Under the pieces are notes generated by a model that was not told where the DNA came from, ran no database searches, and worked only from the letters and a program-made list of their open reading frames with translations. Shown one piece after another: positions 6,301 to 30,221 of a DNA stretch of 64,000 nt. The stretch is from Styela clava. Taxonomy: Eukaryota. The translations under genes and the position numbers were made by a program. Each line of letters starts with the position of its first letter. Position 1 is the first letter of the stretch. The DNA is taken from the NCBI RefSeq assembly GCF_964204865.1, contig NC_135257.1:12090001-12154000 (forward strand). Direction: 5' to 3'.

Positions 6301-9300
6301 TTTCACTTAACCACTGGTCGGGTACATCTTCCTCCAGCATCATATCCATGCATTTGGAACTAATAACTGGCTAACTAATCACATACCCAACAGAGTGGCA
6401 ACCAGACAAGAGGCTGAGGTTCGCCATATGATTAAGTCATCTTATCATCTTATCTCTCCCTTGGGATAAATATGTGAATCCTATCTTGTCATATGGTAAA
6501 TCTTCCAGTGTAATTGGCTCTTCTGCTATTGAGCAGAATTCAGATCACAAATCATTTAATTTTTTTTGCTAATTACAGCCATGTCTATGCATCAGAAACA
6601 TAAAAGAATGCAAAGTGACAAGAGAAAAGTCAACTAGTTTTGAAACTAACTGAACATGATGTAAAGCAATGAAAATAAATGATAAATAGTTGCACTGCTA
6701 TGACTACCATTAAAAAACTAAACCAAAAAGGAAAGCTTAGCACCTGGACATGATAGAAAAAGATAGATAGATAAAACCACTGACTGACCTTTAACAACTA
6801 GGTGCTGTGGAATTGAATCCATCAGATATTTTGTAGCTTCTTCTGTTGCTTGAGAATTGATAGATTCTACAACTACTTTCACCTTATAGTAATTGTTGAA
6901 AAGATCAGGATATGATCCAATAGCAACACCAGCGGAGTGATATCTAAATTGAATTTACTACATATTATTGAAAATTCACTAAGAGACATTAAATAAGATA
7001 TTTATATCTATTCAACTTTTCAATTTTTTTTTTCAGTTTGAATACTTTGCAAACACTATATCTGTATTTTACTTAATCATGAATCCTGAGAATAGATAAG
7101 GTTGATGTATAAAAATCAATAAGAATCATACTTTTCTTGGCAAGCCGACAAATATTTTGCTATTCCTGTTTCTAATTCATCAACCAAAATTTTATTTGTA
7201 TAAAACTGACCTGAAAAATTTCATTTTGTTAAATAAGAGGCAGAGGCAGTTACAAATGATATCATTATTGTTTTTGAGGTCTGGACAAGTGGTCGGCAAC
7301 TGCGGCCCCCGGGCTAAATGCGACACGCAAACAATTTTTTTGTGGCCCTCGAACAACTTCACTTTTATTGCATAAAACAAGAGTTGCTCATAAACTTATT
7401 ATTATCTGTGTTTGGATATATGTCGTAACAATTGCTGTCGCGCATGTTGTTCGTTTTGTAGTAATTATGCAAACGTACCTACTGTTAGTTGTAATTGCCA
7501 CAGGAATAGGGGTTACGGGTGCGGCATATCATGTTCAATGTATCGATTGTTTACAGGTGGCATTTAATGTGGTCCAACGCTATCAAAAATGTGTATGGTC
7601 CAGTTTTACATAAAGTTTACCAACACTAGTCCAGACTATTCCATCTTCTGTTGGTTAAACTTTACCAGAATCTATAAATAGCTTGACTTAATATGAAATA
7701 TAACGTGGTTTAAAGTTAATAGTCATGACAGATGACTACATTTTATTTAATTAATTTATTCAATTAAATTAATTTAATGTCCACAAGAATAAACTTTTTA
7801 TAATTAACCATCTCACCTTCTCCTTTAAATAAATGCTTCAAACTCACTGCGGACTTCTCAAGTAATGAAGGAATACCTGTGAAGTAATAAGGCTGAATTT
7901 AGTATTTATTGCCCCAGGATAAAACAAAATATATACAACAGGTTGTTTCATAAACATTTAGGAGAGTTATATAAACTATGGTTTTGTAAGCGTTAGAATG
8001 GTTATGATAGACAGGTCATATTAATGATGTATTTATTAATAAACTAAAAGCAATAAACTGAATTTAAAAGCAATTAAAACCAATGGGAATATGTAAAATG
8101 CCACCAAAAAACAATATGGGTTCGAATGTAGTAAGAAATATACAAAAGGTAGTTAGGTATATAGGAAAGGTAGTTTAGCTGGAAATGGCATTCATAGAAT
8201 TTTACATTTTTTTTCCTTTCAATATTCAAGGATGTAAAACACAAATGAACTACTGTAACTCTTTGCAGCGTTGCAATATACTGTGAGAAGGATTTACAGA
8301 AATAAACAAACTTACCTATTTGTACAATGATAATGTACTTTTAAAATTTTGCTTGAATGATATGGATATGCATCTACGCCAGGGGTTCCCAGGGGTTTTA
8401 TCTATTTTACATAATACCACCACATGACCAAACTCGAAAGTCCAGTGAAAGAAGCTCCGAAGTTTCATGAAAAAAATATATATTGGCCTGGGGTCGCACT
8501 TTAAAGTTGTCCTTGGGGTCGTCCTGAAAAAAGCTTTGGAAACCCTGATCTATAGTTTTAAAATACCTGGAAATAGAAAAACATTTTTGACTGCGATGAC
8601 TGGAAATCGAAATGAACGTCCTGTAGAAGCATCATGTCCAAAGTGAAGTACATCAGATTCTGGAATATGAGCCATTTTCATTTCTGGTGAATTCATTGGC
8701 TTATTACCAAAATACCTGCAAAAATGAAAAATAAAACTAAAAAATGTTTTAACTAAGCATTGGTATACATACAAAATACTGTGGATCAAAGTAATATTAA
8801 ACTAATATGTTGGACAACTAATCACAAGCTAGCCCAGGTTTGTAAAGAATATCAGCTGTTCATCTTCAAAGCATAATTGTCAGTTACAAATTCTTGTATG
8901 TCGCTGCTCACTCGATAAACTTATTACTGTGACCTGTCTTTCCATCCATGTTCTTTCAAAAACTTTGTAGACTCTTACACTTGAGATACACAAATAATTA
9001 ATTTTTCAACATTTTCGCTGGTTGCACATGAATATTTCACTGTGATTTTACTATATCAGTAGCCTTAATTTCTCACTTTATTCAATAGCACAAGCATTTT
9101 CAGAGTGAACATAAATCAAGATATATAATATATCCCAGACAAATGAATATTTGTGCCAGGAAAAGTCAATTTACTTTTTTAATGACCACAAAGATGCATA
9201 GAAAATAGATAAAGAAAGAGAAAAGTATGAGTCAAATTTGTCATTCCAAGAAGCCCAGCTTTCCCTACCTTGTACAGAGATCTACTAAAGTTTGGTTGGC

Positions 9301-10885
9301 CACAACTGATTCATTAAATGCATTGGCAACTCCATCAAAGGTTTTATCATCATGTGTGGGTCCGATTCCACCAGAAGTCAACACATAATCATATGCGTTT
9401 GAAAAAATGCGAACCTTTCAATGAATAAAAACTGTAACAATTAAATTTCAGTTTAAACAAAATTTATACAGAATCATGAAATATGAAAAAGACAGATACA
9501 AAATTAAGAAAAACAATGATATAGAAATATATTTTGAATTTTAAACTAAATTCTTGGAATACCTCATTAGAAATTTCTTGAATATCATCTCCAATCACAG
9601 TTATTCGCTTTAATGAAACTCCCAAAGAATGAAGAAGTTGACATAAAAAATTTGAGTTTGTGTCTTTTGTTTGCCCTTTCAAAATTTCGTCACCTTGAAA
9701 GGATAAGTTGTAAATTAAGAATATATCACTTCAATCTCGAAAATCAAGAAACATATATTGACAATATATATATATGTTTCAATGATTCTCAACAATGATA
9801 TTACAAATAGATTTTCAACAGTCAGACAGTACAGTAGGAATCATTCATTTTCATATGGGTGCTTGAATGGGAGGCGCAGTTCTTACCACTTCATGGCGGC
9901 TCCTGCCACGAACACACCCCGGCGTCTCTTGTATTTAATGGGGTATGCATCTAAAAATGAATACCTGGCTAACTAATCTCACTAGCAACTAATCCCAACA
10001 TGGACTGGTAACTGGACGAAAAGCCATGGTTTGTTATAGGATTAAGTTATTATATTCTTTTTCGGTAGTCCCGAAGTATGTTAGCCAAGATGGCGGACAC
10101 CGGAACGTAGTATGTGTACCAGGTTAGGGTTAGGCCATAATTGTATTCCATTTTACCTTATTTTAGTTCTATTACGAGTTCGGGGACAAGCCAAGTGACT
10201 CCCTTAGTATTTGTACCTGAAATTATGACCTAACCCCAACCTGGTACACATACTTCGGGAGTACCCCTTTTTCTCCACCCCGGGATGAATATGTAAATTC
10301 TATCCTAATATCAGAATATCTTCTTAAAATATTGAGAAAGAGATTTCAAATTGTCAAACAAAGTCAACAGACTCAACATTAACACAAATCTAAAACAAAG
10401 CGATAAATGGCTTAATATATTAATGATTAATTGAACATGTGTTTTGTATGTTAATATAAAAGACTGATATAATCCTAAGCTTCAAATTAATTTATACAGT
10501 TATATATAGTGGATAGGCAACTAATTTGCCGACAGTATTACAAATAAAATAAATAACATAAAATATGTATAAAAAAATTAGCAGTTGATATTATGGAAAG
10601 TCATGAAAGACTTCAATTTTTTTAAGACAAAGGTTAATTTAATTCAAATTCTATTTAATTTTCATCAAATAACATTTATACTACTATAACGGTACAATGA
10701 AATATTTCCAATCTAAGTTACAGCAAAAAGCAAACTGATGAAATGCCAAAATGGAGCCAATTATTCTAGGCATATTAAAAGTTCTCACCTATTACAATAA
10801 TTCCCGCAGACTTCGGCATTATGAAAGTACTGTTTTGTTTATGGAATGTTTTGAACGTACTCCTCACGCATAAACGAAGAGACAT
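3310..10885 (-). CDS. FLAD1: Bifunctional FAD synthase (molybdopterin-binding/CinA-like N-domain plus PAPS-reductase-like FADS domain), 13 exons, 507 aa
   Basis: Exons 10885-10789, 9693-9563, 9414-9269, 8715-8567, 7876-7817, 7210-7132, 6943-6789, 6089-5998, 5671-5556, 5318-5220, 4614-4425, 3938-3865, 3445-3310; all GT-AG, total 1524 nt in frame. Motifs [70 protein letters not shown]. Confidence 0.95.
6170..6484 (+). mobile_element. tRNA-derived SINE copy in a FLAD1 intron
   Basis: Similar along its length to 22608-22814 and 29188-29498; degenerate B box (gattcgaaccc); shared 3' end gggataaatatgt(g/a)aatcctatc. Confidence 0.7.
7287..7628. mobile_element. hAT (Charlie-like) MITE
   Basis: Termini aagtggtcggcaac ... 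tttaccaacacta with flanks GTCTGGAC/GTCCAGAC (degenerate 8-bp TSD); GCGGCCC subterminal motif. Confidence 0.55.
9868..9915 (-). repeat. Fragment of a dispersed repeat also at 29680-29742
   Basis: Reverse complement of gttcgtggcaggagctgccataaagtggtaatacctgcgcctc seen at about 29697-29740. Confidence 0.55.
10063..10266. mobile_element. MITE with GGGTACTCCCGAAGTATG-type termini and internal GGTTAGGGTTAGG; inserted in a SINE 3' fragment
   Basis: Inverted termini ggtagtcccgaagtatg ... catacttcgggagtaccc; related partial copies at about 12955-13170 and 29881-29990. Confidence 0.7.
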
Positions 10886-11825: not shown

Positions 11826-14709
11826 ATGTTATCTTCGATCGGCAGAACCAATTTATTTCGACAGGTGTGTTTGAATAGCAGCTATAGTGTAGGCCTATAC
11901 GATTTGTTTTGTAACCTCATTTTACATTCGCTTTGGGATTTATTGAATATTAATACAAGTCGATTTATTCTGGGGCTAAAAGTCTGTAAACCGACATCTT
12001 ATACAATACCGGTCAGCCGGTACGAATAAATAAATGATATCTTTTGAGATATTTTTTTTTATTTGTTGGCATAGTTGTATTATCGTACTGTATTAGTACC
12101 GGTAGCTATTGAACTTTTCCTATGACAACAAAGATGGGAAGACAAATAGTCAACATCTTCTAAATACAGAAATATAGTGGTATAAATATTTTTCTTCATT
12201 ATTCAGGTAGGAAATGTTGCGCAAAGATTTCAGAGTACCCTTGTGATTGCTGAACAAAATGGTGACACACTTTCTCCAATCACGCTGAACACTATTACTG
12301 CAGCCAGCAAGCTTGGCGGTGATGTCAATTGTCTATTGGCGGGAAAGTCTTGTGCAAAGGTAAAAATTGTGAATGATTCAAAACCTACCCAAAATTTTAG
12401 CCAAGTAAATGGAAATCATATTTTTGGGTTTGTCAATTTCATTTGGCTGTTTGAACAGGTTAAATTTTGACTATTTGGAAAGATTTTTAAAATTGTAATG
12501 AAATAGATAGCAATTACATAACATTTAGAGATGTTTCAAGTATATTTCAATAATTATTCTAGTGGATTCTGTAACTTTCTGTTTGACTTTGTGAAAACAA
12601 ATTTGTTACTGTTCATTTTTAAAGGCTGCAAAAGAACTAAGTGGAGTAAAGGGAGTTTCAAAAATCTTAGTTGCTGAAAATGATGCATTCAGTGGATTTC
12701 TTCCTGAGGCTCTTACTCCTTTAATTGTTGCTGCACAATCTCAGTTTTCATACTCTCATATATTGGCTGGTGCTAGTGCACTTGGAAAGAACTTGATGCC
12801 AAGAGTGGCTGCAAAGCTGGATGTAGCAGCGATTTCTGATATCATAGATATAAAAGCTCCTGACACTTTTGTGAGAACAATATATGCAGGTATAGTTTGT
12901 GATCCTTTTTCTTATCACAAGTTCATTAATTATCTGTAGATAGATTTCATCAGATGTACTCTCGTAGTGTGTGTACCAGGTTAGGCGATAACTTTACTCA
13001 GATTTTCCTTATTTTAGTTCTATTACGAGTTCGGGGACCTTCTGTGTTGGGCAAGTGAATATACCCCATTGCCCATAGACTTCAGCCCCTTTACGCAACT
13101 TGATGTGAGGTAGACGAACAAAATTAGTTACCTCCATATTGGTACACAACACACACTTCTGGAGCGTCGACCAATTATATTCTGATGCATTCTCAGTTCT
13201 AAACACAATTTGGCCAATTATATTTTGAGCTCTTTATTGTTTACATTACTATTAGCACATACTTTTTTTTTCAGGCAATGCAATTCAAACAGTTAAAGTA
13301 ACAGAATCAGTGAAAGTATTAACAGTACGAGGAACTTGCTTTGAAGCAGCAGAAGATGGTGGGAGCGCAACTCAAGAAGGTAGGTATTACTTGAAATGAA
13401 CCTAATATAAGAAATATTTTCCAATGTAATTCGTTAAACTTTTATCACATCACCTCTAGACCATGGGTTCGCAATTATTCGATGTTATGGACCCTTCTGA
13501 TGATATGCCTAAGATTTGTCAACCACTTCTAATAAATAATACGAGACAATAGTTGGTATGTGCAAGTTGTCATAGAGAACTGCCTTGAATTTATAAGGAT
13601 TATATTAAGTCCAAGATTTGCTCTGTCATAAACTCACATAGATAATTTACTGAACTTGAATAAAAAAGTCTGTCCATATGAGCGAGATCTTGTGGCACTC
13701 TGTAGCCTGGTGTATTGAGTTGCCCACGTGAGGAGACCCGAGTAGTTACATTTTTTCATTACGCAAGCAAAGCTCTTCAAGCCCTATAAACTTCCCTGAC
13801 CTCTCCAGACCAAGCCTGATACAACTGCTGTGCAATGCCCTCACTCCACGCACACAGATTATTTCTTACTACTTTTCAGCTTTCACGTCTGATGTTTCAA
13901 ATGACCAATCCAAATTTCTTGGACAAGAACTGAGCAAGAGTGACCGCCCAGAACTCACTGCAGCAAAAACTGTGATATCAGGAGGTAGACAAATCTGCAT
14001 TAGTATAAAATATGCTTACATCCCAGTGTAGTATAAATATAAACTATTCTTTTTATCTTAGTATATTGGTCTCAATTTTGAATAATTGCACATCTTTATT
14101 TTTAAAAGAATGCATATTCAGCCAACAACTTATGCATTGGTGAGAGAGATGATTGAATTTTTGACAAATTTTATTGGCACATAATATACCCTTGCAGATT
14201 TTGGTCTGCATTTTGAAAATGCTTATTATGAAAGTTTTCTGTATAGAGGTAAGTGAAGGGTATTACAAATTTTATTTCCAAATTCAGGCAGAGGAATGAA
14301 GAATGGAGAGAATTTTGAGCTACTCTATACTCTTGCTGACAAACTAAATGCCGCTGTTGGTGCATCAAGAGCTGCGGTTGATGCAGGTTTTGTTCCTAAT
14401 GATATGCAAGTTGGACAGACGGGAAAGATTGTTGCCCCGGTAAGTGCCATTCTGCTTACCGCTAACCGTGGCCCGTGACACCATTTTTTTTCTTTCTAAT
14501 AAATTTACATTGCACTCTTCTTGCAGGAATTGTACATTGCTGTGGGTATTTCCGGAGCTATTCAGCATCTTGCCGGAATGAAGGATAGTAAAACTATTGT
14601 AGCGATTAACAAAGATCCTGAAGCTCCCATATTTCAAGTTTCTGATTATGGATTAGTTGAAGATCTATTTAAAGCCGTTCCTGCGATGACAAAACTAGTC
14701 GAATCATGA
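11826..14709 (+). CDS. ETFA: Electron transfer flavoprotein subunit alpha, mitochondrial, 7 exons, 333 aa
   Basis: Exons 11826-11864, 12207-12359, 12625-12889, 13275-13379, 13880-13984, 14288-14439, 14527-14709; 1002 nt in frame. Motifs [66 protein letters not shown]. Confidence 0.97.
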
Positions 14710-14807: not shown

Positions 14808-16097
14808 TCAACTTAGGGCATCCATCTGTTCTTGAATAGTTTCCAGCTAAAAATAGAAGTTGTTAATTAGTTGCCTTACCAGATAGAGTTGGTGCTTTTG
14901 TTCTATTTTGTCTGTCCTACCTTATTATAAAATGCTAAAAGCTCTTCGTGATTAAATTCCATCAGAACATCATGACTGCCTTTCTCACTGGGATCGTTCA
15001 CATTTAGCTGCAAAACTACATTTGGTTCGGTGATTTTTGACTTTGATCCCTGTGCCACTTGCAGATTGAGATGCCAGTCCACTCTGTCAAGCTAGAGATA
15101 TAATAAGGCACATGGATGAGTGCTGAATTGTTTGGCAATCTTTACTATTATAAATCAATTAGTACCTGATTAGCTGTCAATGTCTTTTTCTTCAATCGGG
15201 ACACTATATCTCTTCCATATTTTTGCCAACCCTGTGACAGCATCCCACTACGTTCTTCATCCATACCAAGAGATGACAGTTGCTCTGATAAAATGGCTGG
15301 TTTCCAGCTATGGTATGCTGCCTGAAAATAACATTCTATGGTCATCCTTCAGACATGGGTGGTGGACAGTTTGTTCCAGAATTGCTCGTCTTACCCTCTC
15401 ATATATATGTTTTATTGCTTCAAGCATGTGGTTGACGCTATCTGTATTGATTTCAAGTACTTCAGATAACTTGTATTTCTCATCATCAGTAAAAGGTGTC
15501 TTGTTATCTGTCCCGATACTCTGAGCTACCCGACTAGCAAGTTTTGGAAGCTTAGATCCCTCGGTGGAATTCAGCACATCAATTCCCTTGGAAAATCTGA
15601 AAATAATTATACAGGGTGGAGAACTATTTTAATAATATCCAATATTGGAATAGCTAAGTTCTCGTATGACTTTCCAAGGGAAGTGCAATTGATTTGTTCA
15701 TTGGCAATATGTAGAATGAATGCATGGACATTGGAAGAGTTCGGAATAACAAACTTGATTCTCGTATGACTTTCCAAGGGAAGTGCAATTGATTTGTTCA
15801 TTGGCAATATGTAGAATGAATGCATGGACATTGGAAGAGTTCGGAATAACAAACTTGATTCTCGTATGACTTTCCAAGGGAAGTGCAATTGATTTGTTCA
15901 TTGGCAATATGTAGAATGAATGCATGGACATTGGAAGAGTTCGGAATAACAAACTTGATTTCCAAACTCTTTTTGGACCAAGATTTCAGCAAAATATGCC
16001 CTATTTTTTTTAAAGATCATTTGATTGCAATTCACTGTAGTTTATGGCCAATTCAACATGTATGAAATGGATACCTGATTGATTCCTCGAAGGCCAT
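14808..16097 (-). CDS. COMMD10: COMM domain-containing protein, best matching COMMD10, 5 exons, 196 aa
   Basis: Exons 16097-16075, 15596-15395, 15321-15166, 15091-14921, 14846-14808; 591 nt in frame. COMM domain LDRVDWHLNLQVA...MEFNHEELLAFYNKLETIQEQMDAL; AAYHSWKP segment typical of COMMD10. Confidence 0.88.
15661..15960. repeat. Three identical tandem copies of a 100-bp unit in COMMD10 intron 1
   Basis: ctcgtatgac...aaacttgatt starts at 15661, 15761 and 15861. Confidence 0.95.
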
Positions 16098-16394
16098 TAT
16101 TGAATGTTTCAGATTACAATTTTATTTTTAAATCTGTAAGTTAGAAAATACAATTGATTGGGCACTGGTATAAAAAAGTTTTCTGGGTCGCAGTGACCAC
16201 AACGAAAAAACATATCAACTATATACATTAACAGTTTATTAATCTGATTACCAAGGAGCATCTCCCAATATATAACACCACAGATATATAAAATTCATTT
16301 ACAGACACACTTGACAGATCTGGTGTATGTAACTGGAATAGGTATTATGCTGACTTGAGTTTTAAAGGTAGAAGATCATTTGATAATATAATGG

Positions 16395-17729
16395 TTAAAA
16401 CTGTGAGGAGTCTCTGCCAAAGAAAAACGTTTTCATCCAGTCAACAGGTACTTGCATTCTGAGTTTCCAGTTCCCAAGCCGAGTTAAGTAGGCCGAGCGC
16501 CATAGTATCCAAGAATGGAAACCTTTCAACTTTATATCTGCACCACCATGTGGAAGTTTCATATCAGTAAGTGCAGAATATCCTCCAACATAGGCGAGCA
16601 TGCCCATATTTTGAAATTTAAAAGGTTCCGTTTCTTCACCATTGAGGTATTTAGCTAGCCATCGACCTTTTCTCTCAGCAACTTGTGCTGTGCTAGGCAA
16701 AGGCTTGTCTTTTATTTCGGCGCAGTCACCAAGTGCAAATATTGTATCGTCTGGTGTATCAAGAACACTAAGATATTCATTTGTTATTAATTGATGTTGC
16801 TTGTTTTTCGGAAACTGTAACCTTCTTGTAAAGTTTCTAGGTGAAAGTCCTGTTGACCACACCACTAATCCACATGGTATTTCCTTCCCATCTGTTAATA
16901 CAACCCTATCCTTTTTTACTTCAGAGACTGTTGCTTGAAGGAGTTCAAATTGTTCCCTTTTTGCAATTTTGTTCTCTGCATAATCCCGTAAAAGTTTGTC
17001 GAAAGATGCAAGTATATGGTTAGCTTCTATTAATGTCACTCTAACTATTTTTTGCATATCGCCATATAGAAACGATACATCTTGTTTAAGAAAATCATAG
17101 ACCTCGGCACCAAATTCAACACCAGTTGGTCCACCACCAACTATTACAATATGAAGTAGCCTTTCTTGATCTTCTTGAGTGGATTTCGGTTGCACTGCCA
17201 ACTCAAAGTTGTTTATGATCCTGCTGCGGATCTCACGGGCGTCTTTAATTTCTTTAAGAAAACATGCATGTTCGAGCACTCCCGGTACTCCAAATGTGTT
17301 GCTGACAGCACCGACACCTATAACAAGCTTATCATAATGAAGTTCATATCTGACAGATTCATCCACCTCACTTTTACATAACAATACATTTCTTCTAGAG
17401 TCAACACTCACTGCACTGGAGAAGTGATAATCTTTGCTGTGGCGAAAATGGCTATTCCTCACAGGTTCAATGATGCTTCGAAATTCCAATGTACCAACAG
17501 TTGTTGAACACAGTAATGGAGTAAAAAGAAAATGATTTCTAGGGCTTACTACCGCAACATCGTATTGCTTTTTGTCAATATTTTTGAGAACACTATAACT
17601 TCCCCATCCAGTGCCTAAAATTATGAGTTTTTTTCTTCCCGAATTATTGCTCGATAAATTTCTAATGATAAAATGATTTGTAGACCAAATAGCAGATGGC
17701 CACATTAACGACATAACTTGCCTCAACAT
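16395..17729 (-). CDS. Type II (alternative, non-proton-pumping) NADH:ubiquinone oxidoreductase, NDH-2/NDX-like, intronless, about 444 aa
   Basis: Two Rossmann motifs (ILGTGWGS; IVGGGPTGVE), FLFTPLL, GTLEFRSIIEP, ALGDCA, AQVAER, C-terminal WRSAYLT...DW...FGRD; no EF-hand insert. The track ATG at 17795 lies inside an acceptor (ttttatgcag), so M23 (17729, MLRQVMS..., presequence-like) is the likely start. Confidence 0.93.
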   Translation of the reverse strand: MLRQVMSLMWPSAIWSTNHFIIRNLSSNNSGRKKLIILGTGWGSYSVLKNIDKKQYDVAVVSPRNHFLFTPLLCSTTVGTLEFRSIIEPVRNSHFRHSKDYHFSSAVSVDSRRNVLLCKSEVDESVRYELHYDKLVIGVGAVSNTFGVPGVLEHACFLKEIKDAREIRSRIINNFELAVQPKSTQEDQERLLHIVIVGGGPTGVEFGAEVYDFLKQDVSFLYGDMQKIVRVTLIEANHILASFDKLLRDYAENKIAKREQFELLQATVSEVKKDRVVLTDGKEIPCGLVVWSTGLSPRNFTRRLQFPKNKQHQLITNEYLSVLDTPDDTIFALGDCAEIKDKPLPSTAQVAERKGRWLAKYLNGEETEPFKFQNMGMLAYVGGYSALTDMKLPHGGADIKLKGFHSWILWRSAYLTRLGNWKLRMQVPVDWMKTFFFGRDSSQF

Positions 17730-20504
17730 GATAAATTGCAGTTTAAAGTATGACACACTGTAGTATACAAAGACATATGTCCAGTATGTCTGCATAAAAG
17801 ATTAGATATAGAAATATTAATAAAATATGACATTAATAATATAAAGAGGGCAGACAGCACCAAACATCTCTTTTTTTTGATTGGCTCACTCAATGAGTAA
17901 TTTCAATAAATATGCAATAAATGTATAAAATAAAGTCCATACTCCATTTTGCGTTCATAATCCATTTGTTGAAATTGAGTTTCATAGTTTTTCCAGTTTG
18001 TTTCAGCAGTGATAATTAGTCATAATCATAAAGTTATTTTGATAATTACAATGATATAATACAATAAAAAAAGAAAAAAAAATTAGTTGATGTATAAAAC
18101 TTATCATAAACCTGATTTACTATTTAAAATAATGCTTTACATAAATTCTGTTATTCCTTTTCAAAGGGTTTGTTACTCGGAACTTTCTATACTTTTTCTA
18201 TACATTCATTTTTTTCTGCTTTTTAATAAGGAGAGTATTATCAGGTATTTTATTTTCAAATATTATACGATTTCTGAACTATTGATAACAAAAGAATAAT
18301 TGCATTTAAATCTACTCTACTTATAAATATTAAGGACTTAATAAAGGATCATCAAAAGTCAATACTATACAAGAATCATAATTCATAACAAAATGTATTC
18401 TAATTATTTTAAAATTAAGTAAACAAAATCATCACAAATTTCCTGGGTAAACTCACACTGTCACAAGACAAAAAAAATGCGTGACACAAACCGGTCTTCA
18501 CTGCGTAATATTACAAACATATTTCATTTCCAGCCACTCTTTCAATACTGCAATATCTGGTTTTGTTTATCAAGGACAAAATATCGCCGCCCAACTGCCA
18601 ACGTCTTTTACTGGGTTAACTGTATGTGCAGAGTGCAGTGTAGCGCAGGTTTATCGTGTTTCCCGAAAATAAGACTCGGTCTTTTCTCAATTTTCGTTCG
18701 AAAAATATTTTGGGGGATGTCTTTTATCAAAAACAAAATTACAAAGTGGAGAATTACGAAATTTTAATTGATATTTTCAATATTTTGATCATGGCTAATT
18801 TTATTCGATAATATAGCAAACAACGGCCTCAGGTCCGGTTACCAGTTCATGTCGGATATGAAGAATGTAATTGATACCAGGGCATGTCTTTTTAACACTT
18901 GCAAACATATGGATTATACTCTTCCACCCAACAATGATTTCGCTTTAATTGTAAGTTTAAATAAATTTTATTGTATGATAAATGAGAACTACAAGCACAA
19001 AAGGAACTATTTAAAAACAAAAGAATTTTTAATTGTTACCACTACAGAATCGCGCGTAACATTTTGTAGGGGAGTGGGGAGACCGGGGATAGTCGGAACA
19101 TCTGACTACTTAATCGTAATTATTTCTGCAGTCATGTACCACATTACAACGTCTTTGGCGCACAACGTATCTATGTTATTGCTTCACCTAACAGTAACCT
19201 TTAGTTTCCCACAACGCATTTCGTCTGCAAGAAATTGGACCTCGAATGTGCGCGTGTAATTCGTTCCAACTTGCCCCGAGGACGGGGTAGCTTGGACCAG
19301 TCATGGGGCAAGTTGAAAAGTAAAAGAAAAATGACGAACAAGTTAACAAACTCTAAGAATTTTTTTAAATTCAACCACGGGACTTCACAAAGGATCATAT
19401 GGGGATATATCTACAGCAAAAGTTAGCTTTTCTGCACATCTTGCAGTGCCACCTATGCGCATCGGCGCAGGAAGCTTCTTCGTTATATGTCATCTTTCGG
19501 TGCAAATAGACGTCTTCTTCACGCGGGTACAAAAATGCCACGGCATTGGTTCTTCTCATATCCACTCGTCTTAAAAATCTTGTTTTCATCTCTACTACGG
19601 TTTCTGCGTCGCTCGTACCAGAAACTTCCGGAATTTTTCCGATATGGTGCGTGATGGATAGAAATCCTCGGAATCTCACCACAAAAAATCACCCTGCTCG
19701 AATGATTCGGCCTTTTCCTCTATATCTTCCTCGCTATCATCAGTGGTGTCGTGAATAGACATAACATTCCGCTCATCTGAGATCGATTCATCATTGACCA
19801 TCGAACTTTTCCTGGGGATCTTGCGTTGCATAGTTTTTGTACTGGATGCACTCTTTTTCAGATATCTAGCAAAGCCAGGTCTTTTTCAGAAGTTCGAGTT
19901 AAAATACAGGATTTTTTCTGTTTTCTTCTCACAACGATCTTTCGCACCTGTAGCTTGGGTTTTGTGATTGGTCGGACTATTTCTGGAGTCACTCCGGTTT
20001 CAGACTCGACCTGCGATGGCCCTCGGTTATCTACGTGAACTTCTTCTGGGGGCGGACGTTCAGTGGCCAGAGATGGGGAGAAGTCATCTTCGACAAAAAT
20101 ATTTCTATCCAAAGGGTAGATACCTGTTTTGGAAAACGACCTATAGAAGCTCTGGGCGTTCCCCCTTGTTCGAAATTAGTCGACTTTCTATCGCACCAGC
20201 GTAATATTTTTTGAAAGCAAAAAAGACTGATACATCCAAGAGTTGTAGCTTGTGTGAGCAATGCGGCGGGAACGACAGAAAAACAATCCCATGAGGTCAA
20301 TGGTGCAGCGCACATGGGCCTGGTAATGTGCCAAATATTGGACAAAATTTTCCATCTTCATCCATCCAGAACCGTTTTCCTCCCCGACAGAGCCTGCTGG
20401 GCAGCAATTAGGGAAATATGAGCAAAAATTAACTTTTGGAAATAAGATAATTGGTGGCACAGTGTTTTCAATAGCGTTTACAGCACAACAAACTGTTATC
20501 GTAC

Positions 20505-21136
20505 ATTTCCCAATATCTCTTTAAAAAGCTTATTTTCGTCGCTTCCCACTAAAACCCGCCTGAATTAAGTAGAGCAAACGCGTCCCGACCATACGCCGGT
20601 AAGAAGAGAGAATTTTCCAACAATTTTGAGAAAAAGTTTTTCACTTTTAACGCTGTGGTCAACACGTGATCGATATGCGAGAAAAAGAGTTCTCTTCTGG
20701 ACGAGCTTCACGTCACCTTCAAAACAAAACAAGAGTGGGCTTTTGAAGTGAAGTGATATTTGTTTTATCGAAGAGTATTTGATCGCGTGCTGTCTGGTAT
20801 CTTTGTTTGTTTATTATGAGCCGGAAAACGTTGCTCGCGCGTTTAAAATACTTCGTTTTCAACTAACAACAGATTCTTTGTTTATTTTTAAGCTTTGAAA
20901 TCCTCATACAAATAAGTTTGACCTTGTAGTAAAATGAAAATTATACATCAAAAAAATATGATGACGTCCCCATGGTTAAGAACACTCGGATCCAGCATGG
21001 ATTATAGTTGGATGCTTAAAATGATTACATTTGTTAGTGCCGACAAAATTGAAATACTGGATACAAATCATATCCAAAATTGATAAATTTTCCAAGATCT
21101 TGGGGTTTAGGAGAAAAAGGGTCTCATAGAGCTTAA
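20505..21136. mobile_element. Unclassified insertion within the pogo transposase
   Basis: Transposase similarity stops after EYHFK (about 21135) and resumes near 20500; TTAA-like ends. Class uncertain. Confidence 0.4.
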
Positions 21137-22607
21137 AATGGTACTCGTTCATGATTTCATACAAGTTGTCAAAAAATATTCCTACATTGTGTTCGTTGAA
21201 GGCAGACATCCGTGCTATCGATGTTGATTCAGGTGTTTATACCGATATGTTTTTATTTCTCCTCATAAAATCTGAGAACCAATCACTGCCAGCCTGCTTC
21301 TCTTTTTGCCAGGACTGAGGATATTGTATTTTCCTATCCTCGTGACTCTCTTCTATCGCCCTCGCAAAATCATACTAGTCCGCGAGCCGAGGCCATTTAT
21401 CTTTCAGTTTGGTGGCGCACATAAGGTAACTACCTGAAAATGATTTTAAAATGTTCCTTAAAAATTTAGTAACAAATATTGCCTTGTTCTCACTTCCAAA
21501 AGTTGCACGTTTTACAGAAAAGACTCATACACTACAATAAATATGTGTGACCATCTGTCCTATTTTCTCTGCTTTTTCGGTATCATGGGCCAATGAACGC
21601 AGACTGCTGCATGACGTAACAACCAAATTAGTCAGCTGTAGGTGGATCCCCAGTGGTCGGATGAATATCAGATGTACTACTACTGCTCGCTTTTGCGTTG
21701 AGTAGCCTTTCCATAGTTTTTTTTTCAGTTATTATTAGTTCAGTTATTCTAAGGAGGTGTTGAAAAGTATAAGTAAGATATTAAACACTTGTATAACCTT
21801 ACCATAAATAGCCATTTTAGTTGAGCACTAGCTCATAAGACGTTGTTGAATAGGTACGGTGCGGTAACTCCAAGGAAAGCTAGACCTAGAATAATATATC
21901 ACAAACAACGATATTTTCTGGCTTGCATGAAATGTTTATGATTAATTTAATGACTCTTCTTGACTATTCAGCAGACTTATAGACTATGGAGGACTTACAC
22001 GGGTCAAAACAAAAACGTCCATTTGGCTCCTGTCAGTTGCAAGTCGGATTATACGTTTCCGTTTTGTTTGGCTGTTGAAAATGGTTATTTCGTATTGTTC
22101 CGTTGGCTGTACGTATAGTATATAGACAACGAAATGGATCTTAAGGGGTATTCCACTGATTTCAAAAGATTCGGAACGTCGCGCAATGTGGATATCATCT
22201 ATTGCCTTATTTGCCTATTGACAGAACTGCTTGGTGTCAAGTCCAGAAGCCATCTCACTTGTGTTTCACTGTTTGCGGACAGCACTTCGTTGATGGTGAG
22301 TGATAATGTGGTGATAGTGTGCCGTTATCAATTTCTTTAAATATTCACAAGCTCCCTCATTTCAATGGAAAGCAGATGACAAACTACTGTTATTAGTAGG
22401 CCTAAGAGTGGGCTACTTGCAGTTGCAGACTTGACTTGTGTAAGACAGTAAGGAATTAATAATCAATTGCTATAAGCCTTATAGTATAAGGTATTGTTTC
22501 CCTAATTAGCAGGTAATCTATTACTAAGTGTGAAAGGTTGAATGGATAACTAAAGTTTAACACCACGGGGCCTGGAAAAAATAACGAGAATTCAATTGAA
22601 TTCGCCA

Positions 22608-22814
22608 TCTAGGAATACGCTCGCCACCGCATCTCTGATCACCCTGGTAGTTTCACAGGCTTCAATCCTATGCGGGGATGTGCGAGAGGATTGCAGCTCT
22701 ATTCCCACTGAGGGTGGTTCACATGACCGCTGATCGGTTACGACCATTCCCCACCATCCAAGTCCATGCTTCCGAAAACAAATAACTGGCTCCACCCCAG
22801 ATAAATCCTATCCT
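22608..22814 (+). mobile_element. SINE copy (internally deleted)
   Basis: Matches 6188-6484 and 29210-29498. Confidence 0.7.
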
Positions 22815-23383
22815 AATTAATGGTGCTTGTACAACTGATTCAAAAAGATATGCTACCCGGAATCAAATTCATTTACGACTAGTGGCTGTGGTGGGATATG
22901 GACATAACTTTCAGACTTCTTGATCGTTAAATTTTATGAAAACTCTATCTGTATCCATTATCTTACAGATATCCGTGCGACCAGATGGATGGCAAAGTAT
23001 AAGTTGCAACAAGACCACAGTGGCACAAGACCTCAGCTTGCGTGACTTGATAATACATCCTCAGTTTATGACAATTATTGATTAATACCTTACACGAGTC
23101 AAGTCTGCAAGTAGGCCTAGGCATACCAATTACAGTAGTTTGTCATCTGCTTTCCATTGAAATGAGGGAGCTTATGAATATTTAAAAAAATTGATAACGG
23201 CACATTATGATTCACCATCAACGAAGTGCTGCCCGCAAACAGTGAAACACAAGTGAGATGGCTTCTGGACTTGACACCAAGCAGTCCTGCAATTACAGCA
23301 ATAGATGATATCCACATTGCGCGACGTTCCGGATCTTTTGAAAACAGTGGAATATAACTGAAGATCCATTTCGTTGTCTATAC

Positions 23384-25147
23384 CAGTGATTCCCAAAGTG
23401 GGCGATATCGCCCCCCAGTGGGCGAAAACGATACAGAGGGGGGCGAAAAAGTTGAAGGGGGCGATAGGGGGGCGATTTCGCAAAACCTGTTGTATGTTCG
23501 GCGCACCTAATTCTGTAATCTGTGTGCATTCGCAGGCTTGAATCACGTGGGCGATTATCACACGCGAAAGGATTTCTGGACTCGTCTTCGCAGTAAGGTA
23601 CGGTAGTTGCGTATCCCAGTGGTCGGCAAAATACGGCCGGAGTAAAATAATGTGGCCCGGGACGATTCACTGAATGAACCTTCCCCGACCTTTGACCGCG
23701 GAAAATTCTTCCCATACTTTACCATTTTAAAATTTTCGGTGTTTATTTTAAGTGTGGTTTCGCGAGTTGTTGCCTGTAAAATGGGGTATTTGTTTCAAAC
23801 TATCATTCTAATACACACCATTCAACAATCTGTTTTTTAAAAGTACCGATAAAGAATTTGAGCCTAGTCTATCACAGCTATTTCTACACTAATTTTTGAT
23901 TCCTGTAATTTAACTGAAACTCATAAGAAGACAAAGTAATCATTGATTTATATTTAAATTTCCGAAAAACAACTAAAAACTAACGAACATAATTCAAAAT
24001 CGCGAAACTGAGGTAATGTTCACGACCACGCCTGAGAATCTGTCTGAGTGAGCGTGTCTGAGCGGATGTGAAAAGGGGCATTGTCACGTTTTTTGCATCT
24101 TGCTGATTGGCCAATGTTACGAAGTAAACAAGGAAGTCTATGTCCGGGTAAACATTCAAACGGCGGTTTTGACGATGAAATTTTTTTATTTATAATCTAC
24201 GCTCGAGGAGTAAATTACATTTTTTTACGTAACAGAATTTATCGTGAGACACGTTTGGACTAAATTTTATTATATCCTAAAGCAAAGAACTGGGATTAGT
24301 GATTCCCATTTAGAAAATATTCCAATCTTGGCGTCGTAAAGCTATCCAGCGTGATGCAGCAACAAGACAGTGCCACATTAAATGTCATTGTAATATTTTT
24401 TCAATAAGACGACTGAGTTGAGTTCACGAATTGTCGCAGTTTTCGCGCACTGTTCCTTTTTTAATTTCAAAAAATTATGGCAACCCTGAATTTTGTCCCG
24501 CGAGCGACATAAAATTTGCCGTCCCCTGGGCCGTAGCCGATAGTCGATCACGGCTTCTTCCACATCCGAGTCCATGAATCCAAAAACAAATGGCTGATTA
24601 ATTATGGACTGGTGATCGGACTGGAGGCCGTGGTAGGATGAGGAATCGAGGATGAATTTTACCAAAGTATTTTGGTGCATGTCATCATGCTGTACGAATA
24701 AATGAGATGTACAAAAATCATTATTATAAGTTTGGGAAAATTAACCTTGTTTTTATTATTTTAATGTGAAATAGAGTGAATTTAGGAAGTGAAATACTAT
24801 AAGGCAAGAGTACACGGCGGTGTTTGAGGAGGTAGAACCCTGGATTCTTTCATTTCCGACCTATTATATGGTGACAAAGGGGTTTTCAGCCGTGCTACTA
24901 TTGCTATCAAAACAACAAAATAGCCTTTCCACCAGTAAACGGGGTAATTTTAGACACAATAAAAAAGAAGCTAAAGAACACCAATCTCATCTATTTCATT
25001 AAAAAACACTATAAACTATGATTTGTCTTCTTATTTGGTCTGTAATATATTCGTTTCTGACATTTTTTTGTATTGCCGGGGGGGGGGCGATGAAGTTGTA
25101 TAAACTACTATAGGGGGGCGATTGTCAAAAAAGTTTGGGAACCACTG
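23384..25147. mobile_element. Non-autonomous hAT (Charlie-like) element carrying a MITE copy at about 23672-24157
   Basis: TIR CAGTGATTCCCAAA...TTTGGGAACCACTG; perfect 8-bp TSD GTCTATAC (23376-23383, 25148-25155); GGGGGCGA subterminal repeats. Confidence 0.9.
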
Positions 25148-28100
25148 GTCTATACTATACGTACAGCCAGCGGAACAATACGAAATAACCATTTTCAACA
25201 GCCAAACAAAACGGAAACGTATAATCCGACTTGCAATTGACAGCCAACTGGACGTTTTTGTTTTATTGCCGTCCAGTAAACAAGGTCACGTGACCCGTGC
25301 AAGTCCTCTATATATGCCACTTACAGACTATATAGGCCACAGAATATTTGGAAATAGAAATTAATGGCTGTTTCTGTAATGCACGGTTGTGTGAAAGAGA
25401 AGAATTTTACTAATGTCGGCTGGTCTAAATCTAAATTCATAGAGTCGACAAGAACCTGGGAAGCAATGATGAGTTATGCCGGAGTGGAAAGAAAGTAGTA
25501 CTGGAAACGATTGAGAGGTGAAAAATCAAGTTGTAGACAGACAGTTGATGTTTTAAAATAGTCCATAGTCCATACTCATACAGTCATAGGGCATTTCAGA
25601 CTGTGATATATCAAAATTTAGTGTAGATATAGTCTAGTAATGGTATGCAAACACTGCTGGACTGTAGTACATGCAATGAGCTATATACTTTCATTGAGTA
25701 CGTCAGATAAAATGCATTATGTATTCAAGGTATTAGTTAGTATTTATTTAGTGGTATTTTTACATTCATGCTGTTTCAAATAGGATTTTCTTCCTCATTT
25801 TAGATACTGTACTACAAAAGAAAACGGCAATGTTCCACCAATCCGACCTAACGCAGGCTCTCAGTCGTAAAGGTATATGAAAATCATAATAGTTGCAAAC
25901 AGCTTAGATGGGCTATTCATATTGAAATACTTTAGCACATTTCTGCAATTGGAACTGCTCATCAAACTCATGTTGGAGACTTCATTGAGGTTTTCAATTC
26001 ATTTTTTTCTCAACTATAAAGATCTTTTAAGGATAACGAGGCATTAATAAATAAAGCTGAGGAATTTGTTTGTTCACTGTATGAAGAGGATATAAAGAAT
26101 GTAAATGATACCAGGGCACGTCTATTTAACACTGGCAAACATAAGAATTTTACTCTCCCACCCAACAATAATTCACTGAAGAAGCATATGGCCCTCAAAT
26201 CAGTTATTGAGTTGGCAAACTGCAAGTGTAAGAAAAATAGTCAAAATAATTTATGCAAGTGTGCCAAAATCAACTCAAACTGCTTAAAGCTTCAAACTTA
26301 TAGAAGAAAAGTCGATTTTTGAGATAGTGGATTCCGAAAGCAATTCAGAAGAAAGTGAATTAGATATTGCAGTTGATTTAATAAGCATCATTTTTTTTTT
26401 GAACATTTGTTAGTGTCGTAGTCCTGTTTCTAGAAATAATATTGCCTTTTATCAGATACATAACCACATAAACTAAAAAAAGACCAATTGTAATATTTCT
26501 GTTCACTATGTTATGTACATATTGTACATTCATTTAATTTTCTTTACTTTTCCGGTAAATTTCTAAGTGAGAAATAACTGATTTATTTGTGTTTTCGTGC
26601 TCACGATGTTAATTTATAACCTCATTGCTTAAAAATGAATACGTTTGATAGCTTCTTTAAAATGGATGTAGCTTTTTATGCTGTTCTTGTTGTAAACTGC
26701 TTGTGGTTATTACATAAAATTTATTCGCTAATGTGAATCAACGTTGTTGGTGTCGCTGCTTTCGAGGTCACTCGCGACTCCTGTAACACAATTGAAGTAT
26801 TTTTTGTTGTTGGTTACATGTATGCCATATTTTTCGTAATCTACCTAATAAATTATGATTGAATGAGGAAGTCCGATTTTGGTCAGGCAAAACATTACAG
26901 GAATACATTTGTGTTAGTGTGCTGTAGGGCTCTCGAATTGCATAGTTCTTCTGTATGTGTTGTGAACTTATGGTTATTGAATTTCCGGGAACCTCTTATA
27001 TTCAATTTTGCATCAGGATTGTGGAACAAGATGTAATGCGTTCAGTATGTTCATTTTCACACAAAACTGAAAAATTTATTTAGTTACCAGATGTGCGCTA
27101 CAAAATTCATTTTCTGGGCGTTTTCAAGGCTTCGTCTCACGGCCCATATCCGTGGTAAAGATCTACAAGTGTTTAATAACTTACTTATACATTTTTCAAC
27201 AACGTCTTAAGATAACTTAACTAATAATAACTAAACAGGGCTATGGAAAGGTTGCCCAACTCAACGCAAGGTCGAGCAGTAATAACTAATATTCATCCGC
27301 TCGCTAACAGCTGATTCGATTCAATTGTTACGTCATGCAGAAGTCATTGTTCATTGCCGAAAATGTAGAGAATATAAGACAGATCGTAGCACATATTTCT
27401 TGTAGTAAAAGCGTTTTTTCCGTAAAACGTGCAACCTTTGGAAGTGGGAACAAGGCAATATTTGTTACTAAATTTTTTTAAGGAACATTTTAAAATCATT
27501 TTCAGGTAGTTACCTGATGTGCGCTACGTAACTCACTTTCTACGCGTTTTTCAGGGCCGCGCCTTGCGGCCTATACGCTACTCTCCGAAGTTCCAAGGGT
27601 GTAAGACCGAAGAACAATTTGGCAGCTCTGATTGCATACTCTGCTAATTCTTTTTCTTCACCTGCGGTAAAGACGAGTCTACTTTTCTTGTAGCCTACGT
27701 ATCGAACATCAGAATTCATCCTATACTTTTTAACATATCTATTGAGGGTCACATGGGGAATACCAAATTCTTTGCCGGCCTGTCTGATGGTTTTTTGATT
27801 ATCTACAACTTCCATTACCGCATGCAACATTTCTGTTTTTAAAGTTTGACCTTGTTCACTTCTGCGTTTGTATTTCCTCATTTCTCATTAAATTATTTTC
27901 ACTAAAAATGATAAAACTTCGATAAGCTAAGCCAGTAAATTCATAAAGTAATCACTTACAACTGTCCTAACTGGCACAGCACGGCGACCGGATGCTACCA
28001 ATAAGCTTAGGATAGCGGCCTAATCGATGGGTGAGGCACATGGGGCAAGTTGAAACGGTCATATTGCCCCTTGCAGCAAAGTTTCAACTGGCCCCGACGT

Positions 28101-29111
28101 GACTAGGCAAAAGAAAATGGCCGCCCTAGCCGGAACAGTTAGCGCCATGCAGCCGAATCTCTGCTAATGCCAGCCTCTCCTGCATATGGGTCTAGTGGCG
28201 CAATATCGGACGGATCGCCTATGGTACCTTACATACATGATCAAACATTTGAAAAAATTACCTTCCTGGTTTGACCAAAATTTCAATCCGATTTGGAATG
28301 ATATTGCTCTACAAATTACAAAACTAGCTCTAAGCCCTGCCCCATACCAGGGAAATGGCGATGTTGGTCGCGATTTGTTGCCAAAAGATGACGTGATTTA
28401 GGTGCGTCATGTCGCAGAAAATTCGACTGTTTCAACTAGCCCCTTATACCAACTGACCCCGGTCTTCCATACATTCCGTAGTACGTGATGAGAGAGGCTC
28501 TCACTAGGGGTTCAAGCTTTTTCTTGTGATAATTGTGAAAAGCTGATTTTACCTACATCAATAATATCCGAATAAAGACGAACATTGGCCTCCTCGTGAC
28601 GTTTTTTTGTCTGGAATGGAGAGCGCTAATAAACCCCATGGAGGTGGACAAATATTGTATAGCATACAATTTCTGAAATTTTCAGTGGTTGAAAATAAAT
28701 TTTTCCAATTTTTTTCAGAAGGCTATTCCATTTATTTATTTCTAAATTTGTATGAATTCCATGACATTTGATATTTTGTTCAAAATTTCGCTGTATTATT
28801 TTTATCCATGGGAACACGGATTTTAGTCCGCGTGATGACTGACTGTACGTTTTGATTCTGCAAAATTCTTGCTACTGGGAATCCGGAACTTTTTTGAGGG
28901 TACCAGTAGCGTCAAACAAGTGCAGTTTTAAGTATTCTGTGGCGTATGCAGCTGCCGCAAAACCATGGCGGTGTTTCCATGCCATTGCCGTTACGGCCAA
29001 ACCTATGGCGACCATTGAGGTGTATATAATACCTCAATGATGGCGACTGACTTTTTAGTTGCCACAAACCAATGACGAGCTGCCGTTACCGTACTGCTGG
29101 TGTAGTCGTAT

Positions 29112-29180
29112 GCACTGCTGGTGTAGAGGTATCATGCATATTCCCATTCTTGCGACCCGGTTCGATTCCCGGGCAGTGCA
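29112..29180 (+). pseudogene. tRNA-Gly(CCC) pseudogene
   Basis: Acceptor stem GCACTGC/GCAGTGC, TTCCCAT anticodon loop, GGTTCGATTCC B box, downstream TTTTT. Only 69 nt: one base missing in the anticodon stem and one in the T stem relative to the canonical 71-nt Gly-CCC. Confidence 0.75.
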
Positions 29181-29187
29181 AAGTTTT

Positions 29188-29498
29188 TAGGTTCGCAGGT
29201 TCGTTTTTAGGTTCGCAGGTTCGAATCCCATGCAGGGATGGTTATGTGTGAGAGGATTGCTGGACTCCTCGCCGTCGTTGGGTGGTTCACGTAACCGCTG
29301 GTCGGTTACGGCTTCCTCCACCACCAAGTCCATGCTTCCCCGAAAACGAACAATATAACTAATCCCATACCCGACTTGGTAACCGGAACTAATCCCATAC
29401 CCGCCCGGAATGGTAACCGGACGAGAGGCCGTGGTTCGCCATATGGATGAGCCGTCTTATCGGCTTTCCTCTCCCCCGGGATAAATATGTAAATCCTA
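29188..29498 (+). mobile_element. SINE copy, 5'-truncated at the B box, with internal short duplications
   Basis: GGTTCGAATCCC B box; body and 3' end match the other SINE copies. Confidence 0.75.
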
Positions 29499-30221
29499 AA
29501 GACAGGGCTGTCCCTTATGGTGACAAATATTGGGTAAGTTAAAACGATTTTCTTATGGATACAGTTTTGATGGATTTGTGGTTAGGGTTTAAGTAGATAT
29601 AATTCCGCATGATCTATTGAAATCTGGTACATTAATTTGTGAATATACCGTTAATACTGAATAACGCTATAAAACTATGACAAGAGCTACCGCGGTTCGT
29701 TCGTGGCAGGAGCTGCCATAAAGTGGTAATACCTGCGCCTCGCGTCAAAAGGTACCGGTAGGGACGGATTCGCTCTCGTCTACGTGTCCATAAATTTGAG
29801 CGTTGTTTTCATGCGCCTGTCACCCAAGTATAATTGTAATATCTTTTTCATTTACAGAATTATTTTCAAGTTCAATTTTTGGGTACTCCCGAAGTATTTG
29901 AACCAAGATGGCGGACACCGGAACGTAATATGTGTACCAGGTTAGGGTTAGGCCATACTTTCAGGTACAAACACTACGGGAGTCACTGATAAACACTGAA
30001 ACTTATTTATTGGACACGAAATGGGCTCATGAGTCGTTTTCTTAAATTGTTGTTGTTCATTCTTTCTAGTATTCATCTTGTTGCTGCATTTTTGTTTTAA
30101 AAAAATTTTTTTTCCCTTTCACAATTGGACCAATGAACTATTTACACTATGTGGCGGCTCCACGATCGCATTTCAACGATCTAGTGATCAGCGAAATCGT
30201 GAGTTTTTTGATAAGGTAGAC

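What the first reader, a model, noticed from the sequence alone, without database searches (positions are those of the whole stretch)
16395..17729. Intact, intronless type II NADH dehydrogenase in an animal genome
NDH-2 is absent from vertebrates and patchy in animals; the Ciona NDX is the studied case. This copy has no EF-hand, has an acidic residue after the second Rossmann strand (VTLIEA, suggesting NADH over NADPH preference) and an AQVAER quinone-site motif and FGRD C-terminus like plant NDA-type enzymes. It is intronless among intron-rich neighbours, compatible with retroposition or an old transfer. Flanking host genes argue against contamination. Such enzymes are of interest as complex I bypass tools.
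Basis: partly seen in the sequence, partly recalled or inferred. Interest (0 to 1): 0.7.

Follow-up and report, generated by a model that had tools for sequence, protein, structure and literature searches.

The report
Sea-squirt NDX heading a trans-spliced operon
This is a sea squirt's ordinary, inherited copy of a known one-protein enzyme that likely bypasses respiratory complex I; it has no introns and likely shares one transcript with the next gene, a common layout in sea squirts and no sign of a gene transfer.

Summary
The ORF is real: 444 aa, single copy, with all NDH-2 motifs, and closest in fold to yeast Ndi1. It is 65% identical to the Ciona intestinalis protein and falls in a 100/100 tunicate clade, inside animals (96/91) and with choanoflagellate and Capsaspora proteins (100/99). 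A clade of animals plus the nearest bacteria is rejected (p-AU 7e-6). So it is a vertically inherited NDX orthologue. Relatives occur in most invertebrate phyla, spiders included. AOX is present in the genome.

The missing introns need no transfer. Five of five RNA-like runs are colinear over the ORF. The same-strand downstream gene, COMMD10, starts about 260 nt after the stop and carries the published chordate spliced leader in one run. Three runs bridge the two genes. This fits a Ciona-type operon, where 60% of first genes are single-exon. Another tunicate's NDX is also intronless but follows ATP synthase subunit c. Activity and a single transcript are inferred. Verdict: a new member of a known family; low novelty.

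The parts
16395..17729 (-). NDX / type II NADH:quinone oxidoreductase ORF, 444 aa, single exon
17631..17729 (-). N-terminal 33 aa, predicted mitochondrial presequence (4 K/R, 0 D/E, 7 S/T); inferred from composition only
17598..17615 (-). First Rossmann glycine motif (FAD), residues 39-44
   Evidence: criteria in PMC5299459
17115..17138 (-). Second Rossmann motif GxGxxGxE with E205 (equivalent of S. aureus E172), E in 120 of 120 hits
17022..17039 (-). [quoted passage not shown]
16671..16688 (-). AQVAER quinone-site motif (AQxAxR variant, 15% of NDH-2s in PMC5299459)
16410..16604 (-). NDH2_C membrane-anchoring domain PF22366, residues 376-440
16136..16394 (-). NDX 3' UTR / intercistronic stretch (259 nt; AATAAA at 16240); RNA-like contigs stop at 16320 (X5) or 16167 (X7) or run across it (X6, X10, X12)
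16134..16150 (-). Trans-splice acceptor of COMMD10 (pyrimidine tract, CTAAC, AG ending at 16134); a non-genomic 21-nt leader joins here in run X5
16075..16133 (-). COMMD10 exon 1 (ATG at 16097), spliced to exon 2 at 15596
14906..15596 (-). COMMD10 exons 2-4 (likely downstream operon gene; last exon not mapped)
17730..18018 (-). NDX 5' UTR or outron; RNA-like contigs end at 17867-18018; candidate acceptors at 17790 and 17758; no leader seen among the listed loose ends

Best explanation
This is the single-copy, intronless, vertically inherited tunicate orthologue of Ciona NDX, a flavoprotein predicted to pass electrons from NADH to ubiquinone at the inner mitochondrial membrane without pumping protons, and it is likely the first gene of a two-gene operon with COMMD10. 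Inferred enzyme steps: a short basic presequence imports it; FAD binds the first Rossmann fold; NADH binds the second (E235 disfavours NADPH); quinone is reduced at the AQVAER site; the C-terminal helices anchor it; no calcium control, as there is no EF-hand. With the genome's AOX it would form a fully non-pumping bypass of complexes I, III and IV. Gene steps: shown are colinear RNA over the ORF and a spliced leader on COMMD10; inferred is one promoter upstream of NDX, with leader trans-splicing at 16134 releasing the COMMD10 mRNA. The lack of introns is likely the usual state of tunicate NDX and of first genes of ascidian operons.
For: Pfam PF07992 and PF22366 over cut-off. PDB best hit yeast Ndi1 E 2e-64 against FSP1 6e-12; Foldseek top hits Ndi1, TM 0.72. 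65% identity over 418 aa to the C. intestinalis protein. Tree of 72 rows: tunicates 100/100, animals 96/91, animals+Salpingoeca+Capsaspora+1 unnamed 100/99; animals+17 bacteria rejected, p-AU 7.07e-6. One copy in G000; the two weak hits are FSP1. 17 of 27 listed allele differences are silent, against 21% of possible changes. AOX in 4 matching segments on C17. Leader at 16135 in X5 equals the published Chordata-1 SL consensus. 3 of 5 RNA-like runs (2 studies) bridge NDX and spliced COMMD10; X7 ends about 33 nt from the acceptor; the intron bin has depth 0 in RNA-like runs while X1 covers it. 60% of 5'-most Ciona operon genes are single-exon (PMC2760879). L016, in the tunicate clade, is intronless.
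Against: No activity, location or membrane side was measured. Contigs across two genes do not show one transcript (tool caveat): an NDX 3' UTR overlapping COMMD10, or a COMMD10 outron from its own promoter, would give the same bridges. The leader was seen in 1 of 5 RNA-like runs; X5's NDX contig stops at 16320, 186 nt before the acceptor, and an AATAAA lies at 16240. RNA status of the runs is the tool's guess, though splicing and the leader support it. The model is weak in the C-terminal helices (pLDDT 53-59). The tree lacks yeast Ndi1 and land-plant NDA/NDB, used LG+G4 without a mixture model, and its deep branches are unresolved. P0015 was not matched by accession to the studied NDX transgene. 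Intron status was seen on DNA-like records in only two tunicates.
Confidence: 0.8

Rival explanations
1. Same enzyme, but the gene reached this site as an old retrocopy that landed in front of the trans-spliced COMMD10 gene, and its parent was lost; tunicate NDX moves between operons this way.
For: A cnidarian-like homologue has a 1160-nt GT-AG intron near residue 302 that both tunicate copies lack. In L016 NDX follows an intronless ATP synthase c gene by about 190 nt, with an acceptor-like AG 7 nt before the ATG, while G000's c-subunit gene is on C3 and split. No COMMD10 was found in L016's 2.4 kb downstream. Leader copies are common in this genome's retroelements.
Against: No parent or remnant in G000. 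Loss of one intron plus ordinary rearrangement explains the same data. I did not search for a poly(A) scar or target-site duplication.
Confidence: 0.25
2. NDX and COMMD10 are separate transcription units packed tightly; COMMD10 is trans-spliced from its own short outron.
For: AATAAA at 16240; X5's NDX contig ends at 16320 and X7's at 16167. Trans-splicing also acts on single genes with outrons (PMC3074122, passage).
Against: Only 259 nt lie between stop and acceptor, and RNA-like contigs cover all of it in 3 of 5 runs.
Confidence: 0.2
3. The gene came by horizontal transfer from bacteria, algae or fungi into tunicates or early animals, or is contamination.
For: Bacterial homologues of the FCB group and others are 40-49% identical; the gene is intronless.
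Against: Tunicate and other animal hits score far higher; the holozoan clade is 100/99; the AU test rejects animals+bacteria; composition matches host genes; alleles from other studies of the same organism cover it. A transfer older than the holozoan ancestor was not tested.
Confidence: 0.03
4. It is an AIFM2/FSP1- or SQOR-like flavoprotein, not a respiratory NDH-2.
For: Shared Pyr_redox_2 fold; weak FSP1 hits.
Against: NDH2_C present; the genome's two FSP1 genes are separate and form the outgroup; SQR ranks 46th in the fold search.
Confidence: 0.01

Closest known systems
Ciona intestinalis NDX (Gospodaryov et al.; PMC7056681, abstract, introduction and passages read)
   Same: 65% identity over 418 aa to the C. 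intestinalis hit P0015; same motifs including AQVAER; same tunicate clade; AOX in the same genome
   Different: Shorter N-terminus (37 against 67 residues before the first motif); a 4-residue insert near residue 392 shared with its three nearest relatives; different branch of the tunicate clade. Ciona's gene structure and neighbours were not checked.
Saccharomyces cerevisiae Ndi1 (PDB 4G9K, 4G6H)
   Same: Best solved sequence and fold match, about 33% identity, TM 0.72; acidic residue after the second strand
   Different: Quinone motif ends in R here and Q in Ndi1; shorter link before the C-terminal domain; matrix-facing location not shown here
Plant NDA-type NAD(P)H dehydrogenases (PMC5877776, passages read)
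   Same: No EF-hand insert; E at the specificity position
   Different: No supported grouping with the green-algal proteins in the tree; land-plant NDA and NDB were not in the tree
Ciona-type SL-resolved operons (Satou et al. 2008, PMC2760879, section 10 and passages read)
   Same: Same-strand pair, single-exon first gene, leader on the downstream gene, transcript ends close to the acceptor
   Different: Exact abutting of the 3' end and a single promoter not shown; partner gene differs from that in L016

Membership tests
Type II NADH:quinone oxidoreductase (criteria of PMC5299459) | Two GxGxxG-like dinucleotide motifs | tested here: met
   GTGWGS 39-44 (variant with S at the last position, as in 102 of 120 animal hits) and GGGPTGVE 198-205
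Type II NADH:quinone oxidoreductase (criteria of PMC5299459) | Conserved glutamate (E172 equivalent) and aspartate (D302 equivalent) | tested here: met
   E205 and D335, each in 120 of 120 hits; equivalence read from motif context
Type II NADH:quinone oxidoreductase (criteria of PMC5299459) | Quinone motif AQxAxQ, AQxAxR or APxAxQ | tested here: met
   AQVAER 348-353
Type II NADH:quinone oxidoreductase (criteria of PMC5299459) | C-terminal membrane domain and no fused extra domain | tested here: met
   PF22366 at 376-440, 51.9 bits against cut-off 27.7; no other domain; two helices in the model, low pLDDT
Type II NADH:quinone oxidoreductase (criteria of PMC5299459) | Rotenone-insensitive NAD(P)H:quinone activity at a membrane | not testable with these tools
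   needs an assay
Animal NDX orthologues | Clade with the Ciona protein inside animals | tested here: met
   100/100 tunicate clade, 96/91 animal clade; single copy
Animal NDX orthologues | Mitochondrial import and membrane side | tested here: inconclusive
   N-terminal 33 aa basic with no acidic residue; no targeting predictor available
Plant NDA subfamily | [quoted passage not shown] | tested here: met
Plant NDA subfamily | Phylogenetic membership | tested here: inconclusive
   Green-algal rows form their own 100/100 clade with an unresolved link to Holozoa; no land-plant rows. Not filed as NDA.
AIFM2/FSP1 | Clade with FSP1; no NDH2_C domain | tested here: not met
Ciona-type operon | Same-strand pair with under 100 bp between transcripts | tested here: inconclusive
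   X7 ends 33 nt from the acceptor, X5 186 nt; X6, X10, X12 run across; contigs cannot show ends
Ciona-type operon | Downstream gene SL trans-spliced | tested here: met
   21-nt loose end at 16135 in X5, 1 of 5 RNA-like runs, matching Chordata-1 SL and absent from the window
Ciona-type operon | One promoter and a polycistronic precursor | not testable with these tools
   no raw RNA or long reads listed

The most novel reading that the evidence does not exclude
Tunicate NDX is a single-exon passenger that has moved between trans-spliced operons: first gene before COMMD10 here, likely downstream gene after ATP synthase subunit c in another tunicate, where an uncoupled bypass enzyme would be co-transcribed with the coupling machinery. 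It would be a traceable case of how ascidian operons gain single-exon genes. The family itself dates to the holozoan ancestor and persists in land spiders and scorpions, against the printed view that arthropods lost it.
Probability: 0.3. Interest if true: 0.45.

Novelty: new member of a known kind. Interest (0 to 1): 0.22.

Why it matters
As an enzyme it adds little: Ciona NDX is already a fly transgene that extends lifespan and lowers NADH/NAD+ (PMC7056681; PMC12707817, passages), and one search lists over a hundred animal relatives. It is one more compact candidate for complex I bypass. Two smaller points are useful. The tree supports inheritance from the holozoan ancestor, with 8 named spider and scorpion proteins among the 120 hits, whereas PMC5496232 states loss in arthropods and retention only in marine invertebrates. 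And an intronless gene in an ascidian is weak evidence of transfer or recent retroposition, because first genes of operons are mostly single-exon.

Tried and rejected
Upstream ATG at 17795 as the true start: two indels between it and 17729 are in frame (9 and 3 nt), but it sits in a predicted acceptor tract and relatives are no longer; left open. A leader on NDX itself: none among listed loose ends in 8 runs, but 60 and 5 rows were not shown; no conclusion. No RNA holder is on record as RNA, and no raw RNA reads were available. Runs of other organisms (X14, X15) gave only short pieces; synteny not testable that way. An upstream operon gene: 2 of 50 frames of 70 aa or more in 17800-36000 hit Pfam (a Psq HTH, and a sub-cut-off Secretogranin match); shorter exons would be missed. 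NCBIfam: 15 families, none over cut-off. Three more intronless cnidarian-like records (L017, L045, L069) may be RNA assemblies and were not used. Several full-length ENA hits on long contigs may be single-ORF genes, but their DNA could not be seen. L170 entered the first tree in a wrong frame and was dropped. The candidate SL RNA gene folds no better than shuffles (z 0.74). No complex prediction was run. Earlier-findings look-ups by sequence, words and nearby place returned nothing. Matus-Ortega 2011, Gospodaryov 2014 and 2025, and McDonald and Gospodaryov 2019 were seen only as citations; they may already cover distribution and gene structure. No supplements were opened.

Full report
Observation. 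The minus-strand ORF 17729-16395 encodes 444 aa with no stop; the frame is open from an ATG at 17795. Pfam gives Pyr_redox_2 (34-355) and NDH2_C (376-440), both over cut-off. The best solved relative is yeast Ndi1 (E 2e-64), then Plasmodium and bacterial NDH-2; FSP1 scores 6e-12 at best. An AlphaFold model from a 24-row alignment (mean pLDDT 72.9) matches Ndi1 first, TM 0.72. PMC5299459 (passages) lists AQxAxR as a normal variant. [quoted passage not shown] G000 holds one copy; the two weak hits are FSP1 genes. AOX matches in four segments on C17.

Relatives. The search found 5038 proteins at E 1e-30 or better among 7998 scored, and listed 120. The top named ones are tunicates: Clavelina 69%, Phallusia 68%, Ciona savignyi 67%, C. 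intestinalis 65%. Then come annelids, molluscs, echinoderms, hemichordates, a nemertean, a brachiopod, sea anemones, 7 spiders and 1 scorpion, tardigrades, nematodes, a flatworm, a sponge and Trichoplax at 55-64%. No vertebrate or insect name is among the 120, but many rows are unnamed and the list is cut, so this is not a test of absence. E235, E205 and D335 are invariant in 120 of 120, and R353 is in 111. The 'NDA-like' motifs are simply the animal state.

Origin. The tree held the query, 28 of the 120 hits, 24 other proteins from the representative search (11 named through; the Mesotaenium label is my reading of a source code), 17 of 80 GTDB loci (an 18th was dropped for a wrong frame) and the two FSP1 genes as outgroup. 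The query sits in a 100/100 clade with the named tunicates, in a 96/91 animal clade, in a 100/99 clade with Salpingoeca, Capsaspora and one unnamed row. The bacteria group elsewhere. Holding animals and bacteria together is rejected, p-AU 7.07e-6; I fixed that group after seeing quick trees. Yeast and land-plant rows were missing and deep branches are open, so the family's pre-holozoan origin is untested. Of 27 listed allele differences in the ORF (a best-supported subset), 17 are silent, against 21% of possible changes, which fits a functional gene.

Gene structure. Eight public runs were laid in two calls; five are RNA-like runs of this organism from three studies. All five give one colinear contig over the ORF. 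The downstream same-strand gene is COMMD10, with exon 1 at 16133-16075 spliced to 15596. In run X5 its contig ends at 16135 in a 21-nt loose end that is absent from the window and equals the Chordata-1 spliced-leader consensus of PMC3795323 Table 1 (passage; found). It joins at an acceptor AG 259 nt after the NDX stop. Runs X6, X10 and X12 run from NDX through this acceptor into spliced COMMD10; X7 stops at 16167 and X5 at 16320. The intron bin has zero depth in RNA-like runs while X1 covers it. The tool warns that a contig across two genes shows no single transcript, so the operon is inferred. In Ciona about 20% of genes are in operons and 60% of first genes are single-exon (PMC2760879 section 10). 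No clear host gene was found in 18 kb upstream.

Other genomes. A metagenome scan kept 80 of 562 matching stretches. L016 encodes P0009, which falls in the tunicate clade, as one ORF. It starts about 190 nt after an intronless ATP synthase c gene, with an acceptor-like AG 7 nt before the ATG. G000's c-subunit gene is on C3 and split, and COMMD10 was not found in L016's 2.4 kb downstream. L018, nearest to sea-anemone proteins, has one 1160-nt intron near residue 302. So the gene is intron-poor in one outgroup record and intronless in both tunicate DNA records seen, and its neighbours differ. These data do not separate intron loss with rearrangement from an old retro-relocation.

Mechanism. Shown: fold, motifs, orthology, single copy, colinear RNA, AOX, leader on COMMD10. 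Inferred from family knowledge: import by a basic 33-residue presequence, FAD-mediated NADH to ubiquinone transfer without proton pumping, no calcium control, and a full bypass together with AOX. Inferred from layout: one precursor RNA resolved by trans-splicing. The membrane side is unknown.

Literature. Ciona NDX is characterised in flies (PMC7056681: abstract, introduction, passages; PMC12707817 and PMC13267290: passages). NDH-2 is reported across jellyfish (PMC13679545, passages) and in 'a few metazoan organisms' (PMC5349180, passage). PMC5496232 (passages) says arthropods lost such enzymes, which the chelicerate hits question. My ten searches listed no paper title on NDX gene structure or operons, but key subscription papers were seen only as citations.

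Verdict. The family call is right, the transfer idea is rejected, and the intronless state has an ordinary ascidian explanation. New member of a known kind; interest 0.22. The side lead on leader copies in LTRs is more unusual than the finding; earlier AI notes on this genome describe similar leader capture by LINEs (unchecked).

Noticed in passing
G000 genome-wide; L096 (C1:13883000-13891500), L097, L011-L015: The 21-nt leader occurs 374 times exactly in G000 (control 0); only 7 copies are followed by a GGTAG donor (candidate SL RNA genes). 14 of 19 copies on C1 are same-strand pairs 5.0-7.1 kb apart. L096 is a Gypsy-like element (zinc knuckle, protease, RT, RNase H, integrase) with identical 754-nt TG..CA LTRs, a 4-nt target duplication and the leader at LTR position 572. 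Two copies differ by a 9-nt acceptor-like step after the leader. This suggests trans-spliced element RNA was copied into the LTRs. Searches listed no title on this; only PMC5240408 was opened.
   Followed up: partly
L016:4577-6467: In another tunicate-clade record an intronless ATP synthase c-subunit gene lies about 190 nt upstream of intronless NDX on the same strand, with an acceptor-like site before the NDX ATG: a possible operon pairing coupled and uncoupled respiration genes.
   Followed up: partly
one search hits P0077, P0086, P0087, P0099, P0100, P0103, P0106, P0109: Seven spiders and a scorpion have 56-60% identical homologues; the two tested group inside animals. Land snails and freshwater molluscs also have it. 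PMC5496232 states loss in arthropods.
   Followed up: partly
window 9268-9730 (-), 11900-14709 (+), 16395-17729 (-): A MoCF-domain gene (FAD synthase-like by recall) lies head to head with ETF-alpha, near NDX: up to three FAD-related genes within 9 kb. May be chance.
   Followed up: no
window 48858-49541 and 50187-51926 (+): Med19 and a beta-adaptin-like gene are long single ORFs on the same strand, 645 nt apart: another possible operon.
   Followed up: no
window 15659-15960: Three identical 100-nt tandem copies inside COMMD10 intron 1; recent duplication or assembly artefact.
   Followed up: no
L099 (G000 C5) and L100 (G000 C2): Two FSP1/AIFM2 paralogues, each a single ORF of 401 and 378 aa.
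   Followed up: partly
L101-L180 (GTDB): A set of bacterial NDH-2, mostly FCB group, is 40-49% identical to the animal enzyme and groups with red-algal and glaucophyte proteins at 96/99: a possible separate transfer between eukaryotes and bacteria.
   Followed up: partly
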